Shown here piece by piece: positions 5,455-9,435 of a stretch of 64,000 nt of DNA. The notes below the pieces were generated by a model that worked only from the letters and a program-made list of their open reading frames with translations, was not told the DNA's origin and ran no database searches. Position 1 is the first letter of the stretch, and each line of letters opens with the position of its first letter. Made by a program: the position numbers and the translations under genes. Source of the stretch: Terriglobia bacterium (GTDB lineage Bacteria > Acidobacteriota > Terriglobia > 20CM-2-55-15); contig CBDAOY010000005.1 in the NCBI GenBank assembly GCA_965198225.1, positions 832,001 through 896,000 on the forward strand, written 5' to 3'.

Positions 5455-6076
5455 TGTCGCCCCTTTCTTTTTTCTGGAAAACGTGGACTTTGAGGGCATG
5501 CTGGGTGTCCTTCCGAATGATTGCCGGTGTTTATGACTGGCCCACAGTGACCGCCCCCGGGGGGAAACGATCAATCGTAATCCATCGAGAGCCGGCGCGG
5601 TCGTCGAGGCACGAGATAGTCCGGTCTTGCAGTTTGACCTCGCATGAAGCTGGATAGTGACGCCGATTTTGAGACTCACGAGAATGAAGAGGAGAAATGT
5701 GGGCAGAGCCGAGCATCATGGCGGGATCTCGACGGGGACTGGCCGGCATTGTGACGTTAATCGGATTTACAGCGAAATCGTGGTCACGGTTTTCATTTTC
5801 AAGGAGTTGGCCTCCAAGACGAGAAGTAATGGATGCAGAAGTTCCCCGGCGGTATCGACGGCAGCACCTTCGGGATTGTTCAAGTGGGGGTCATTCCCCC
5901 ATTAGTGTCCCCCTCCGGGATGGGTGAAACCCCTCGCCTTTAGGCGGACCGTGCGTGCGAGAGGGACGGTGTACTGTCATAAGGTCGCCGTCTCATGGAG
6001 GCCGCGAAACCTTGTTGCATGGATCATCCCGAAGGATGCCTTATCATCGTGTTTTTCAACACCGGGGATAACTTAG

Positions 6077-6644
6077 ATGCCACATAAGTTTAACGCAGCC
6101 CGACGGCACAAGTTTGATAAGGCGCAGTATCGGGTGATCAACTGGGCGGAATATAACGAGAGCCTGCGCCAGCGGGGTGATCTGACGATCTGGGTCAGTG
6201 AGGAGGCTCAAAGTGTGTGGAGCGCGCCGCGCCGCACGTCACGGGGTGGCCAGCGGAGATACTCGGATCTCGCGATCGAGACATGCCTGACGCTGCGCAC
6301 GGCGTATCGGCTTGGGTTGCGACAAACGCAGGGGCTGATGGGTTCCATCGGCACGCTCATGGGGCTGGATATACGGGTGCCGGACTTCTCCACACTGTCG
6401 CGTCGTGCAAACGGCTTGAGCATCGCTCAGGTGATGAGGCAAGCCGGGTCTGTGGCTGTCCATCTGGTGGTGGACAGTACCGGCCTCAAGATCTTCGGCG
6501 AAGGGGAATGGCTCGCGCAGAAGCATAAAATCAAGGGAATACGCCGCCGCTGGCGCAAACTCCACCTCGGACTGGACCTGGCCAGCGGTGCGATTGTTTG
6601 CGCCAATCTGACTCACGATGACGTTGGAGACAGCACTGCATTAC
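6077..6644 (+). pseudogene. IS5 transposase, N-terminal part
   Basis: NWAEYNESLRQRGDLTIW, PDFSTLSRR, LVVDSTGLK, WRKLHL; cut by the IS110 at about 6645. Confidence 0.88.
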
Positions 6645-6761
6645 CTGATGGGATGGACTCCTCCTTGATGACTGAGTCGGCATCGTAGTGCCAAAGTCAT
6701 TGTGAAGCCTCGCGATGGTGCGGGCTAAACACGAGGACGTGTAAACAAGAAGGAGTCCGAG

Positions 6762-7796
6762 ATGAAGAGTAAAACGATCGCAGTGGATCTGGCAAAGAAT
6801 GTTTTCGAGATTGGGATTTCCGACCGCCCCGGGCAGATGACGAAGACATACCGTTTAAGCCGGGGAAAGTTCTTGTCGTTTTTTGCGAATCAGGAGCTGG
6901 CGACGGTCGTGATGGAAGCCTGCAGTGCCGCCCATCACTGGGGACGAGAGATCCAGAAACTGGGGCACACAGTGGTACTGATTTCACCGCAGTATGTCCG
7001 GCCCTACGTACCGAGGAGTAAGACGGATCGGGCGGATGTAAAAGGGTTGCTGGAGGCCCACCGGAATGCCGATATTCGGGCGGTACCCATTAAGACGGTG
7101 GCGCAACAGCAACTCACCGCCCTGCACCGCATCCGGTCGACCTGGATGCGGACCCGGACGGCGCGCATCAACATGGTGCGGGGGCTGCTGGGAGAGTTTG
7201 GGCTCGTGCTGCCGACGGGAGCCCGGCGGCTGGTGCCCGGAGTCATGGGGTTGATCGAAGATGCGGATGTTGAGATCCCCATGACCGTACGCGTCATGTT
7301 CTCGGAAGTGTGCACCGAAATCCGCGAGCTGGAGGCACGCATTCAATCGGTGGAGCGGGAGTTGGAAGCCCTGGCCCGTCAGATGCCCGAGGTGGCCCGT
7401 CTGCGCTCGATCCCTGGAATCGGGCTGTTGACTTCCACGGCGATGGTAGGTTTTGTCGGTGACCCCCGACGGTTTCGATCCTGTCGCCACTTTGCCAGTT
7501 ATCTGGGACTCACCCCGCGTGAGCGTTCGAGCGGAAACCGGCGTCGGCTGGGAGCGATCAGCAAACAAGGCAACGTCTACCTGCGGATGCTGCTCATACA
7601 CGGTGGCCGCACTCTGCTATGGAGTGCGCATCGAAAAGGGGCGCAACCTTCGGCTCTGCAGAAATGGGGTCTCCGTCTCCACACACTCCGCGGGCACAAC
7701 ACGGCCACGGTTGCTTTAGCCAACAAACTGGCCCGCACGGTTTGGGCCGTCTGGACACAGGACACGGCGTACGAGGCTGACCGACGGGCGGCCTGA
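6762..7796 (+). CDS. IS110-family DEDD recombinase/transposase
   Basis: IAVDLAK, VVMEAC, SKTDRAD (DEDD); LRSIPGIG, SYLGLTP, SSG, ISKQGN, VALANKLAR. Confidence 0.93.
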   Translation: MKSKTIAVDLAKNVFEIGISDRPGQMTKTYRLSRGKFLSFFANQELATVVMEACSAAHHWGREIQKLGHTVVLISPQYVRPYVPRSKTDRADVKGLLEAHRNADIRAVPIKTVAQQQLTALHRIRSTWMRTRTARINMVRGLLGEFGLVLPTGARRLVPGVMGLIEDADVEIPMTVRVMFSEVCTEIRELEARIQSVERELEALARQMPEVARLRSIPGIGLLTSTAMVGFVGDPRRFRSCRHFASYLGLTPRERSSGNRRRLGAISKQGNVYLRMLLIHGGRTLLWSAHRKGAQPSALQKWGLRLHTLRGHNTATVALANKLARTVWAVWTQDTAYEADRRAA

Positions 7797-7799
7797 CAC

Positions 7800-8000
7800 C
7801 ATGACTGTAGGAACATCCTTTCAGTAGACTGCGACGACGTTCGAGTTGATGACGTACCGGTCAGACCGGCGCGGGGAAACGCCGGAGAAGCCGTGGCCCC
7901 TGGAGGCCGTTTACCCGGTTGGCACCCCGCGCGCGAATTTCATCATGGCCCGGAACTCAAACGTTCCATTCGAGAGGCCGAAGATACGGATGCAGTCGAT
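7800..8000 (+). ncRNA. Candidate bridge RNA/seekRNA of the IS1111-type element (boundaries approximate)
   Basis: Position downstream of the transposase as in IS1111-type elements; short segments match both target flanks and both element ends (see findings). Confidence 0.65.
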
Positions 8001-8101
8001 CTGTCACTCAACTCGAAAATCAAATATCAGGATGCTGAAAAGAATCTTCGGGAAAAGGATATGGGACAGCTGCGCCTACTTGACAGGAGGAGTCCAGATA
8101 C

Positions 8102-8507
8102 GGCTCCTGGATCAACTCGATGCCCCGGTCACGGGCTTTCTGGCTGACGGCGCCTATGATGGAGCTCTACACGAGATCTGCTGAGGGAACGGTATGGGGA
8201 GACCCTGGATGTGGTTATACCGCCGCCAAAGAACGCAGTGATCCGACCGCAATCGGCGCGGGATCCAACCGATCGGGATCGCCATATTGCTCAGATCCGC
8301 AGCAACGGACGCATGGCCTGGCAACTGGCCACAGGGTACAACCAGCGCAGCCGGATAGAAACGCAGATCGGCCGTTGGAAGAGCGTCATCGGCCCCAAGC
8401 TCAAATCCCGCAGCTTCTCCAGGCAAATCACGGAGATCCAGGTCGGCCAGAAAGTTCTGAACACAATGACCGCACTCGGACGGCCTGTGTTCGAACGTAT
8501 CGCCTGA
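8102..8507 (+). pseudogene. IS5 transposase, C-terminal part (further frameshift/stop near 8165-8200)
   Basis: LLDQLDAPVTGFLADGAYD, then VIPPPKNA...GYNQRSRIET...RWK in another frame. Confidence 0.85.
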
Positions 8508-8838
8508 CGCTACCGCTTGGGAAAGGGCGAATTCCATCTCCGCCCCGATCCATGCAACAACGCTCAGCAGTACTGAACTCGACGCCGAGGCGCACAACGC
8601 GATGGCGGAGAGCATGAACGAAGGTCCGGCGTAAGCGGTTTCGGGGATTTGCTTCCTGGGGATGCGCTGCTCTTACCGCGACGCGATTCCATTCACAATA
8701 TGAGGGAGGACGGACCGCGACCGGCCCGCTTCTGGAAGCTCCGCTCATTGCCGAACCGGCGACTTGCAGGCCGGCGCCCTAAACGCCCTCGTCCGGGTGG
8801 GCTTGCGGCCGCTTCACATTTCCGTCGCGTCCGTGGGC

Positions 8839-9435
8839 TCAAGCGCCCGGGCTGTTCCAGATACACTTCATGAAGTTGAATCGCTCTCCGTCCGCCGCGT
8901 CCCGGAATGCATACCGCGGATCTTCCTTTTCCTCCGGGATCGTGTAAGGCAAGCGATATCCAAGCCACACGGCTTTGAACGGATCGAACTCCGGGCGCGT
9001 TCCGGTCTCTAGCAGCTCCAGTATGGATTCTTCGGCTCCAACTCGCGTGCTGCGCGTCGTCAACGGGCTGTTCAGCAGGACCAACAGGTGCCCGCGTCCC
9101 CGCCGCCGGGCCAGTTCACGGTACTTCTTGCGCTTGCGTTCGACCAGATCCCGCGCTCTGACTCCCATCACCGCATCGGGTTCCCAATATCCTCCGCCCA
9201 CGTTTCCGGGCTCCGCGCCCCACAACCACTTAGCTTCGTTCGAGTTGTAATAGGCGCCTGTAACCTCTCCCCAGGAGGTCATGACAGTTCCATCGCACCT
9301 TCGAATGTGGAAGTCGATGTCGGGTGGATCTTCATCGGGCCGGGTCGAACGAACCTCGGCGTCCATATGCTGCCCCAGCGCAACAGCCCAGCAGCTTCCC
9401 CAGTAATCCTCGTGTTGACGTTTCATATTGGACAT
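8839..9435 (-). CDS. Hypothetical protein, possible PD-(D/E)xK-like fold
   Basis: 198-aa ORF; EDPPDIDF...WGEVT pattern. Confidence 0.55.
   Translation of the reverse strand: MSNMKRQHEDYWGSCWAVALGQHMDAEVRSTRPDEDPPDIDFHIRRCDGTVMTSWGEVTGAYYNSNEAKWLWGAEPGNVGGGYWEPDAVMGVRARDLVERKRKKYRELARRRGRGHLLVLLNSPLTTRSTRVGAEESILELLETGTRPEFDPFKAVWLGYRLPYTIPEEKEDPRYAFRDAADGERFNFMKCIWNSPGA

What the first reader, a model, noticed from the sequence alone, without database searches (positions are those of the whole stretch)
6641..8107. IS1111-type element whose non-coding region contains matches to its target and its own ends
Established: IS110/IS1111 recombinases use a non-coding RNA (bridge RNA/seekRNA) that pairs with target and donor; in IS1111-type elements it lies downstream of the ORF. 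Seen: both junctions share AC (6643-6644, 8100-8101). The region contains, in order, AGCCGT (7889-7894; reverse complement of right junction ACGGCT), TTAC (7911-7914; left flank), CATCA (7941-7945; reverse complement of left end TGATG) and AGATAC (7982-7987; right end). Inference: these are the four guide segments of an intact RNA-guided recombinase with a target close to TTACGGCT. Each match is only 4-6 nt, so order and context carry the argument.
Basis: partly seen in the sequence, partly recalled or inferred. Interest (0 to 1): 0.72.

Follow-up and report, generated by a model that had tools for sequence, protein, structure and literature searches.

The report
IS1111-type insertion sequence with guide RNA
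This is an intact, recently mobile insertion sequence of the known IS1111 type whose downstream non-coding RNA carries short stretches matching its insertion site and its own ends; it is an ordinary member of a recently described class of RNA-guided mobile elements.

Summary
The element is real. It is a 1,455-bp IS1111-group insertion sequence (window 6646-8100) with a 344-aa DEDD transposase, perfect 12-nt subterminal inverted repeats and a 304-nt downstream non-coding region.

Several details were wrong. Empty paralogous sites show the target is TTACC^CGGCT(T), with no duplication, so the "shared AC" is a coincidence.

- **Target guides:** AGAAGCCG(U) (7886-7894) and UUACCCGG (7911-7918) are the two strands of an internal loop around a conserved GGCC hairpin. 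In 12 related element types these strands change in step with the flanks.
- **Right-end guide:** AGAUA (7982-7986, followed by CGG) tracks the right end in distant relatives.
- **Left-end guide:** CAUCA (7941-7945) tracks the left end in distant relatives, but it can also pair inside the RNA.

The order (top-strand match 5' of bottom-strand match) is the one published for IS1111 seekRNAs. This is a new member of a known kind. Expression of the RNA, the circular form and activity were not shown.

The parts
6646..8100 (+). Whole insertion sequence, 1,455 bp (TGATGGGA...CCAGATA)
   Evidence: Boundaries come from two occupied and five empty paralogous sites. There are four identical copies in the genome and four more in two other genomes.
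6641..6645 (+). Left half of the target (TTACC), flank
   Evidence: TTACC precedes the element at 8 of 8 copies.
8101..8108 (+). Right half of the target (CGGCTCCT in this copy), flank
   Evidence: the flank is CGGCT or CGGGCT at 8 of 8 copies.
6646..6653 (+). Left terminal extension TGATGGGA (left end, 'right donor' half-site)
   Evidence: TGATGRG is conserved in close relatives.
6654..6665 (+). Left subterminal inverted repeat
   Evidence: pair I3: 12 nt, 100% complementary to 8085-8096.
6762..7796 (+). Transposase gene, 344 aa, with RBS AAGGAG at 6750-6755
   Evidence: One search gives the ORF. PF01548 and PF02371. NF033542, E 6.8e-92; the C-terminal domain matches the IS621 and ISCro4 transposases.
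7820..8039 (+). Structured non-coding RNA domain (predicted seekRNA/bridge RNA, long form)
   Evidence: The outer helix 7820-7831/8028-8039 and inner helices come from RNAalifold and pair counts on 12 element types.
7881..7885 (+). 5' strand of the basal stem of the target-binding loop (GCCGG); pairs with 7919-7923 (UUGGC)
   Evidence: helix 5: 96.7% of cells paired, one pair with a change on both sides.
7886..7894 (+). Right target guide AGAAGCCG plus U7894; complementary to the top strand of A|CGGCTTCT
   Evidence: this strand varies among 12 types in step with each type's right flank.
7895..7908 (+). Conserved apical hairpin GGCC-loop-GGCC of the target-binding loop
   Evidence: helix 6: invariant in 12 of 12 types.
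7911..7918 (+). Left target guide UUACCCGG; identical to the top strand of the empty target from -5 to +3
   Evidence: an 8-nt match at 5 of 5 distinct sites. Searches agree.
7919..7923 (+). 3' strand of the basal stem (UUGGC)
   Evidence: helix 5.
7940..7945 (+). UCAUCA: complementary to the left end TGATG(G). It is the putative right donor guide and also one strand of the alternative helix with 7847-7852.
7947..7979 (+). Conserved stem-loop of the donor loop (GGCC...GGCC with inner GGAA/UUCC)
   Evidence: helices 7 and 8. The same module is present in the distant family.
7982..7989 (+). AGAUA-CGG: the putative left donor guide. AGATA equals the right end and CGG equals the first three flank bases.
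7840..7853 (+). 5' strand of the long-range helix with 8003-8017. Its UGAUGA (7847-7852) can alternatively pair with 7940-7945.
   Evidence: pair I6; (minimum-free-energy fold), helix 2: 82.7% paired, four pairs with changes on both sides.
8080..8085 (+). Outward-facing TTGACA, 15 nt from the right tip; candidate -35 of a junction promoter
   Evidence: TTGACA in 9 of 12 types. A promoter role is inference only.
8085..8096 (+). Right subterminal inverted repeat
   Evidence: pair I3.
8097..8100 (+). Right terminal extension GATA

Best explanation
Window 6646-8100 is an intact IS1111-group member of the IS110 family. Its DEDD/serine recombinase (6762-7796) is guided by a non-coding RNA encoded downstream of the gene (about 7820-8039). 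One internal loop of that RNA is the target-binding loop. Its 5' strand (AGAAGCCG, then U7894) pairs with the top strand to the right of the insertion point. Its 3' strand (UUACCCGG) pairs with the bottom strand across the insertion point. Together they specify TTACC^CGGCTT. A second module (7936-7990) carries UCAUCA and AGAUA(CGG) on either side of a conserved GGCC stem-loop; these most likely pair with the left end (TGATG) and the right end (AGATA). The element inserts precisely, without duplication, and by analogy with studied relatives moves through a circular form. Shown here: the anatomy, the exact insertion point, and covariation of guides with flanks and ends. Inferred: that the RNA is made, binds the protein and directs strand exchange.
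For: - **Protein.** PF01548 and PF02371 match, as does NF033542 'IS110 family RNA-guided transposase', E 6.8e-92. The GLTPRERSSG motif is present. The C-terminal domain aligns to the IS621 and ISCro4 transposases.
- **Anatomy.** The subterminal repeats are 12 nt and perfect. The non-coding DNA is 304 nt downstream of the gene and 116 nt upstream.
- **Recent mobility.** There are 4 identical copies in this genome and 4 more in two other genomes, giving 5 distinct sites.
- **Exact target.** It comes from 5 empty and 2 occupied paralogous sites. Public contigs also join 6645 to 8102 through 'CG', which is the empty IS5-type site.
- **Target guides.** The 3' loop strand matches 8 nt at 5 of 5 distinct sites. 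Across 12 element types the longest exact match of the two loop strands to their own target averages 6.98 and 5.96 nt. Against other types' targets it averages 4.25 and 3.67 nt, and against shuffled targets 3.55 and 3.61 nt. One type (L069, 11 copies) matches 9 of 9 nt.
- **Structure.** 96.4% of 563 cells are paired, and 9 pairs have changes on both sides against 3.0 +/- 1.1 in shuffles.
- **Right end.** In 9 distant element types the right end is CCATACATT, and the homologous RNA position reads AAUACAUU in 8 of 9.
- **Left end.** In those 9 types, left-end position 6 (G or A) is matched by C or U in 9 of 9. There both strands lie in an internal loop closed by a covarying helix. L012, with left end GACTGGGA, has CCCCAGCC at this place.
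- **Order of matches.** The order agrees with Siddiquee 2024, sections 9 and 12.
Against: - No evidence of transcription or processing. The RNA-library contigs that cover the element cannot show expression.
- No circle-junction joint was seen in the 4 runs laid, but contigs drop rare forms.
- No Rfam family matches.
- Single-sequence folding energy is unremarkable: z -1.73 for 7797-8101 and z -0.53 for 7855-8010.
- In this window's own copy the right guide matches only 5 contiguous bases, or 7 of 9 counted in fixed register.
- In the close family, UCAUCA pairs with an upstream UGAUGR in 12 of 12 types, with covariation. Left-end position 6 is matched in only 9 of 12 types (8 Watson-Crick, 1 G-U, 3 A:C; read).
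- AGAUACGG matches the integrated right junction, not the expected circle junction AGATA^TGA.
- Eleven perfect TTACCCGGCT sites in the genome are unoccupied.
- Relatives are kin, so the shuffle controls overstate significance.
Confidence: 0.85

Rival explanations
1. Only the target-binding loop is a DNA guide. UCAUCA (7940-7945) is simply one strand of an RNA helix with UGAUGA (7847-7852), and the ends are recognised by the protein through the subterminal repeats. On this view the resemblance of CAUCA and AGAUA to the ends is conserved scaffold.
For: - The helix 7847-7852/7940-7945 is paired in 12 of 12 types, and its variable pair reads GC 7, AU 3, GU 2.
- Left-end position 6 is mismatched to the RNA in 3 of 12 close types.
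- Siddiquee 2024 reports that an 82-nt short seekRNA with only the target matches sufficed for ISEc11, and that how the ends are bound is not known (sections 10 and 14).
Against: - In the distant family both strands lie in an internal loop, and both differ from the window's in step with the ends: ATACATT with the right end, CUCAU or CCAU with left ends ATGAG or ATGGG (9 of 9).
- L012 has two compensatory changes toward its own left end.
- The same upstream strand can instead form the 14-bp helix with 8003-8017, which frees UCAUCA.
Confidence: 0.2
2. This is the first reader's IS621-like model: an AC core dinucleotide is shared by target and donor and flanks the integrated element, and the target is TTAC/GGCT.
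For: AC is present at 6643-6644 and 8100-8101.
Against: - Five empty sites read TTACC^CGGCTT with three C, and the occupied ones carry two C on the left and one on the right.
- Intact IS5-type copies read TTGCCCGGGCT.
- The base before TGATG varies with the flank and with the guide in relatives (C, T, A, G).
- One site has G instead of C after AGATA (L060).
Confidence: 0.02
3. The four matches are chance, and the downstream region is only a 3' untranslated region or terminator.
For: Each match is short. The fold energy is unremarkable. No Rfam family matches.
Against: - The four strings appeared together and in order in 0 of 20,000 shuffles.
- The strands flanking an invariant hairpin change with the flanks in 12 types.
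- The structure is conserved, with covariation, across relatives of 35-77% protein identity.
Confidence: 0.01

Closest known systems
seekRNAs of the IS1111-family elements ISEc11, ISPa11, ISKpn4 and ISPst6 (Siddiquee et al. 2024, PMC11187229; I read sections 6, 9, 10, 12, 13, 14)
   Same: - The non-coding region lies downstream of a transposase of about 340 aa.
- Subterminal inverted repeats are present.
- Insertion is precise and without duplication.
- Two overlapping matches exist, one to each target strand, with the top-strand match 5' of the bottom-strand match.
- Relatives of about 72% identity are naturally redirected by changes in these segments.
- ^CG lies right of the insertion point, as listed for ISPa11 and ISKpn4 (review PMC13604230, Table 1).
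   Different: - The host phylum is different (a Terriglobia genome by the record titles), and so is the target.
- Here a second module matching both element ends is evident. That paper states that end recognition is unknown and that the short RNA sufficed.
- I could not see its figures or supplements.
Predicted IS1111-group bridge RNAs (Durrant et al. 2024, PMC11208160; I read passages only)
   Same: The RNA lies in the right end, with target- and donor-complementary nucleotides in its loops. [quoted passage not shown] This agrees with the alternative helices seen here.
   Different: This element was not among the six they inspected by hand. Their guide maps (Extended Data Fig. 10c) were not visible to me, so I cannot say whether a flank-containing donor guide was drawn there.
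IS621 bridge RNA (IS110 group; Durrant 2024; Hiraizumi 2024, PMC11208158, passages; Hiraizumi 2026, PMC13626964, abstract)
   Same: - There are two loops, each with one strand pairing to the bottom strand of a left half-site and one strand pairing to the top strand of a right half-site.
- The right target guide runs on into the donor's last base(s), like a handshake guide.
- The recombinase has DEDD and Tnp domains.
   Different: - The RNA is downstream of the gene, not upstream.
- The order of guides is reversed.
- The subterminal repeats are long.
- No core dinucleotide is shared by target and donor, and none is duplicated.
- The three bases that three guide strands share (CGG) lie wholly to the right of the insertion point.

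Membership tests
IS110 family, IS1111 group (insertion sequence) | Transposase with an N-terminal DEDD (RuvC-like) domain and a C-terminal PF02371 domain | tested here: met
   PF01548 E 2.4e-08 (above cutoff) and PF02371 E 5.9e-24. NF033542, 308 bits against a cutoff of 140.
IS110 family, IS1111 group (insertion sequence) | GL-P----S(T)G motif and a length of 330-350 aa (criteria from Siddiquee 2024, section 6) | tested here: met
   The translation contains GLTPRERSSG, and the protein is 344 aa.
IS110 family, IS1111 group (insertion sequence) | Subterminal inverted repeats of 7-17 bp with short terminal extensions | tested here: met
   pair I3: 12 nt, 100% complementary (6654-6665 / 8085-8096). 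The extensions are 8 nt and 4 nt.
IS110 family, IS1111 group (insertion sequence) | The longer non-coding region lies downstream of the transposase gene | tested here: met
   304 nt lie downstream (7797-8100) and 116 nt upstream (6646-6761).
IS110 family, IS1111 group (insertion sequence) | Site- and orientation-specific insertion without target duplication | tested here: met
   One search compares empty and occupied sites. All 8 copies lie at TTACC^CGG. One search shows the joined empty form.
IS110 family, IS1111 group (insertion sequence) | A circular intermediate with abutted ends and a junction promoter | not testable with these tools
   No back-joining contig was found in the 4 runs laid, and contigs cannot show rare forms. 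TTGACA lies 15 nt from the right tip, but the -10 candidate is weak.
IS1111-type seekRNA / bridge RNA | [quoted passage not shown] | tested here: met
   7886-7893 is the reverse complement of CGGCTTCT, and 7911-7918 reads TTACCCGG. They overlap on CGG.
IS1111-type seekRNA / bridge RNA | Guide segments change with the target in relatives (natural reprogramming) while the scaffold is kept | tested here: met
   12 types were compared. Own-target matches average 6.98 and 5.96 nt, against 3.55 and 3.61 nt for shuffled targets. The hairpin and stems are conserved.
IS1111-type seekRNA / bridge RNA | Guide segments are unpaired (loop strands) in the conserved structure | tested here: met
   This holds for the two target guides and for AGAUA. 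For UCAUCA it is inconclusive: paired in one conserved alternative, free in the other, and in an internal loop in the distant family.
IS1111-type seekRNA / bridge RNA | Donor-binding segments complementary to the element ends | tested here: inconclusive
   The matches are present and covary with the ends across families. Within the close family the ends do not vary, and one position disagrees in 3 of 12 types.
IS1111-type seekRNA / bridge RNA | The RNA is made, binds the transposase and is required for movement | not testable with these tools
   Only contigs of RNA libraries were available.
IS621-type (IS110 group) bridge recombination | A core dinucleotide shared by target and donor that flanks the integrated element on both sides | tested here: not met
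   One search shows no duplication. The left junction is TTACC|TGA and the right junction is AGATA|CGG.
IS621-type (IS110 group) bridge recombination | The RNA is encoded upstream of the gene, with the left target guide 5' of the right target guide | tested here: not met
   The RNA is downstream and the order is reversed.

The most novel reading that the evidence does not exclude
In this IS1111 lineage the RNA is built around the excision substrate and product as much as around the free target. The three bases right of the insertion point (CGG) are read by three guide strands: the 3' ends of the left target guide, the right target guide and the donor-loop strand AGAUACGG. They are read as a core would be in IS621. 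Yet the DNA shows no shared or duplicated core, and the donor-loop strand equals the integrated right junction rather than the circle junction. In addition, the left-end-complementary strand can be masked by a covarying alternative helix, which suggests a conformational switch. If real, IS1111 recombination uses a crossover geometry and a regulation different from IS621.
Probability: 0.2. Interest if true: 0.55.

Novelty: new member of a known kind. Interest (0 to 1): 0.3.

Why it matters
RNA-guided IS110/IS1111 recombinases are being developed as programmable genome-insertion tools, and the IS1111 branch is much less understood than IS621. This locus adds no new principle. With its relatives it does give a clean natural series: 12 guide variants on one scaffold, with exact empty and occupied sites. 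The series fixes the register of both target guides relative to the insertion point. It shows that insertion needs no shared core. It also points to the end-matching strands, which the experimental IS1111 paper I read left open. That could help in designing guides for IS1111-type enzymes.

Tried and rejected
- **AC-core model:** rejected by the empty sites.
- **Rfam:** an E-value search of 6000-9000 gave only a chance mir-191 match on the other strand (E 0.3), outside the element.
- **Single-sequence folds:** the energies are not exceptional. The minimum-free-energy fold pairs parts of the guide strands with each other, but those pairs are not kept in relatives.
- **Promoter and terminator scan:** one promoter-like site (7919-7946) against 0.6 expected by chance. 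No use was made of it.
- my first scoring script used a fixed register and a faulty pattern for the basal stem. Its left-guide figures are meaningless. It was replaced by the register-free longest-match test.
- several helix coordinates were off by a few bases. They were redone by alignment column.
- **Loci left out of the counts:**
  - L011, L020 and L053: no right end was found within the DNA held.
  - L062 and L080: my end motifs were not found.
  - L010 is the same place as L048.
  - L026, L027, L064 and L065 are partial or broken genes and were not analysed.
- **Read laying:**
  - No joint joins the right end back to the left end.
  - Run X16 has no cover over 7852-8049.
  - One X3 contig skips 7884-8079 with only 24 letters on its shorter side.
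  - None of these three observations is evidence of anything.
- **Expression:** the RNA-library contigs cover the element but cannot show transcription.
- **Flank matching in the distant family:** the bases after ATACATT in the RNA (UG, GG, GC) do not match the right flanks there. The CGG match of the window family is therefore not general.
- **Literature:**
  - No paper in the held library with IS1111 in its title or abstract gives a structure of an IS1111 complex.
  - Figures and supplements were not visible. Siddiquee's supplementary folds and Durrant's Extended Data Fig. 10c and Supplementary Table 5 may already show donor guides for IS1111 elements.
- **Unpublished genome G335 (locus L039):** it was only scanned and gave nothing relevant.
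Full report
**What is there.** The region holds one ORF of 344 aa (6762-7796, + strand) preceded by AAGGAG. It matches the two Pfam domains of IS110-family transposases (PF01548, PF02371). It also matches NCBIfam NF033542, 'IS110 family RNA-guided transposase' (E 6.8e-92). Its C-terminal domain aligns with the solved IS621 and ISCro4 transposases. The ORFs on either side (6077-6688 and 8211-8507) are the two halves of an IS5-type DDE transposase gene, so the element sits inside another insertion sequence.

**Copies and exact boundaries.**
- The own genome holds four identical copies. Two other genomes of the same bacterial family hold two each. Together these are 8 copies at 5 distinct sequence contexts.
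- Two copies lie in a repeat that has five unoccupied copies in the same genome. The empty copies read GGCATTACC^CGGCTT, and the occupied ones read GGCATTACC|TGATGGG...CCAGATA|CGGCTT.
- The element is therefore 6646-8100 (1,455 bp). It inserts between CC and CG and duplicates nothing.
- Intact IS5-type copies read TTGCCCGGGCT (5 of 5).
- Public contigs in 3 of the 4 runs laid join 6645 to 8102 through the two letters CG. That is the empty TTACC-CG-GGCT form.
- The subterminal inverted repeats are 12 nt and perfect (6654-6665 / 8085-8096), with terminal extensions of 8 and 4 nt. The long non-coding region is downstream of the gene. All of these are IS1111-group characters as listed by Siddiquee 2024 (section 6) and Durrant 2024 (passages).

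**The target-binding loop.**
- I collected relatives from genomes of the same class and family.
- Twelve element types of 61-77% protein identity share a scaffold. It runs: basal stem GCCGN/NUGGC, a variable strand, U-GGCC-loop-GGCC-GU, a second variable strand.
- In every type the reverse complement of the 5' variable strand resembles its own right flank, and the 3' variable strand resembles its own left flank followed by CGG.
- The longest exact match to the element's own reconstructed empty target averages 6.98 nt for the 5' strand and 5.96 nt for the 3' strand. Against other types' targets the figures are 4.25 and 3.67 nt, several of which are similar. Against shuffled targets they are 3.55 and 3.61 nt, and matches of 7 nt or more occur in 0.7% and 0.5% of shuffles.
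- For the window's type the 3' strand UUACCCGG (7911-7918) matches positions -5 to +3 at 5 of 5 distinct sites. The 5' strand AGAAGCCG (7886-7893) matches 4-6 contiguous bases from the insertion point: 5 in the window copy, 6 at the CGGCTTT sites, and 4 at the CGGGCT sites.
- The best case is the L069 type: 11 copies, with 9 of 9 bases in the right guide.
- The order, top-strand match first, is the one reported for all IS1111 seekRNAs tested and is the reverse of the IS110 type (Siddiquee, sections 9 and 12).

**Structure.**
- RNAalifold on the 12 types gives a domain from about 7820 to 8039.
- Counting pairs, 96.4% of 563 cells are standard pairs. Nine pairs have changes on both sides, against 3.0 +/- 1.1 in shuffles. 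Sliding the 3' partners drops pairing to 32-47%.
- The sequences are related, so these controls overstate the case.
- The two target guides and AGAUA are unpaired in this consensus.

**The end-matching module.**
- Downstream of the target loop, all close relatives carry ...YCAUCA-U-GGCC...GGCC-G-R-AGAUACG....
- CAUCA is the reverse complement of the left end TGATG. AGAUA equals the right end. With the next three bases (AGAUACGG, 7982-7989) it equals the integrated right junction 8096-8103.
- Within the close family the ends do not vary, so I looked at nine element types of 35-40% protein identity, whose ends I defined from multi-copy sets.
- Their ends are TAATGRGATGG... and ...CCATACATT. At the homologous RNA positions they carry CUCAUC or CCAUC and AAUACAUU (8 of 9; one has AAUACCUU).
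- Left-end position 6 (G in 3 types, A in 6) is matched by C or U in 9 of 9.
- There the two strands face each other across an internal loop. The loop is closed by a helix whose inner pair covaries (GC 4, CG 3, 2 broken).
- A Gemmatimonadota relative (L012, 46% identity) has left end GACTGGGA and CCCCAGCC in place of UUUCAUCA. That gives six of eight possible pairs, two of them compensatory relative to the window.
- I conclude that both segments are most likely donor guides.

**The caveat on CAUCA.**
- In the close family UCAUCA can pair with an upstream UGAUGR (7847-7852). It is paired in 12 of 12 types, and the variable pair reads GC 7, AU 3, GU 2.
- Left-end position 6 is matched by the RNA in only 9 of 12 types.
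- The same upstream strand can instead form a 14-bp helix with 8003-8017 (82.7% paired, four pairs with changes on both sides). This is the pairing chosen in the single-sequence fold, and it leaves UCAUCA free.
- The two helices exclude each other, and I cannot tell which one forms, or when.

**How it most likely works.**
- By homology with ISEc11 and IS621, the transposase binds the RNA. The target loop pairs with both strands of TTACC^CGGCTT, and the second module pairs with the two element ends. Strand exchange then joins them without loss or gain of bases. These steps are inferred.
- Two details differ from IS621. First, there is no shared core. Second, the bases that several guide strands have in common (CGG) lie entirely right of the insertion point.
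- The right target guide runs on into the element's last base (U7894 opposite A8100). In distant relatives this extension reaches 2-3 bases. This resembles the handshake guides of IS621, which pair with the product after strand exchange (Hiraizumi 2024, passages).
- AGAUACGG matches the right junction. This fits the finding that excision substrates bind across both loops (Hiraizumi 2026, abstract) and that IS1111 donors need the correct flanks (Siddiquee, section 14).
- However, the flank match is not seen in the distant family, so I treat it as unexplained.

**What was not shown.** Transcription, processing, protein binding, the circular form and activity were not shown. The RNA-library contigs that cover the element cannot show expression, and no back-joined contig was found. 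A conserved outward TTGACA lies 15 nt from the right tip (9 of 12 types). It would suit a junction promoter, but the -10 candidate in the left end is weak.

**Novelty.** Durrant 2024 predicted bridge RNAs in 93% of catalogued IS1111 elements, and Siddiquee 2024 proved the principle for four of them. This is one more member, in a Terriglobia genome by the record titles.

Noticed in passing
window 6077-6645 and 8101-8507: The host IS5-type transposase gene in this copy has CGGCT right of the insertion. The 4 other occupied IS5-type copies and the 5 intact ones have CGGGCT, so its frame would stay broken even after precise excision. All 5 intact copies in the genome read TTG where the left target guide needs TTA. 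An empty TTA form exists in public contigs.
   Followed up: partly
L002 2957-4340 (G000 C5:744857-746311 and flank); also L003: The second target of the element lies about 340 bp upstream of the likely start of another IS110-family transposase gene. The surrounding repeat is present at least 7 times, with 5 empty sites. One RNA-guided element is therefore inserted into the upstream region of another.
   Followed up: partly
window 6655-6672 and 6741-6758: The left subterminal repeat is 83% complementary over 18 nt to the ribosome-binding region of the transposase gene (pair I1). In read-through transcripts it could mask the start.
   Followed up: no
loci L022, L049, L051, L052-L055, L068 versus L069-L079 (genomes G064, G128): Two related element lineages insert at the two sides of the loop of one REP-like palindrome (ATTCTCAACGTCCG^AGAAGATGATTTCT^CAGGACTTGAGAAT), in opposite orientations. 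Each lineage has matching guides.
   Followed up: partly
L005 (G000 C4:92181-93570, minus strand): This is a 72%-identical single-copy relative in the same genome. Its right end reads CCAGAGG instead of CCAGATA|C, and its right flank fits its guide poorly. It is probably a decayed copy.
   Followed up: no
window 7847-7852, 7940-7945, 8003-8010: There is three-way covariation. The variable base of UGAUGR pairs with the variable base of both possible partner strands (12 of 12 and 11 of 12 types). This would suit a switch between two RNA conformations.
   Followed up: partly
L044 (oriented so that the transposase gene is on +) 2674 and 2805: The conserved stem-loop module that carries the end-matching strands occurs twice, identically, 131 nt apart.
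   Followed up: no
G000, genome-wide: Eleven unoccupied TTACCCGGCT sites exist (7 with a further T) beside the 4 occupied sites. The element is far from saturating its targets.
   Followed up: no
window 6762-7796 (protein residues 181-264): There is a weak match, below the cutoff, to the NCBIfam model for the TIGR-Tas RNA-guided endonuclease (E 3.5e-08, 33.7 bits against a cutoff of 100).
   Followed up: no
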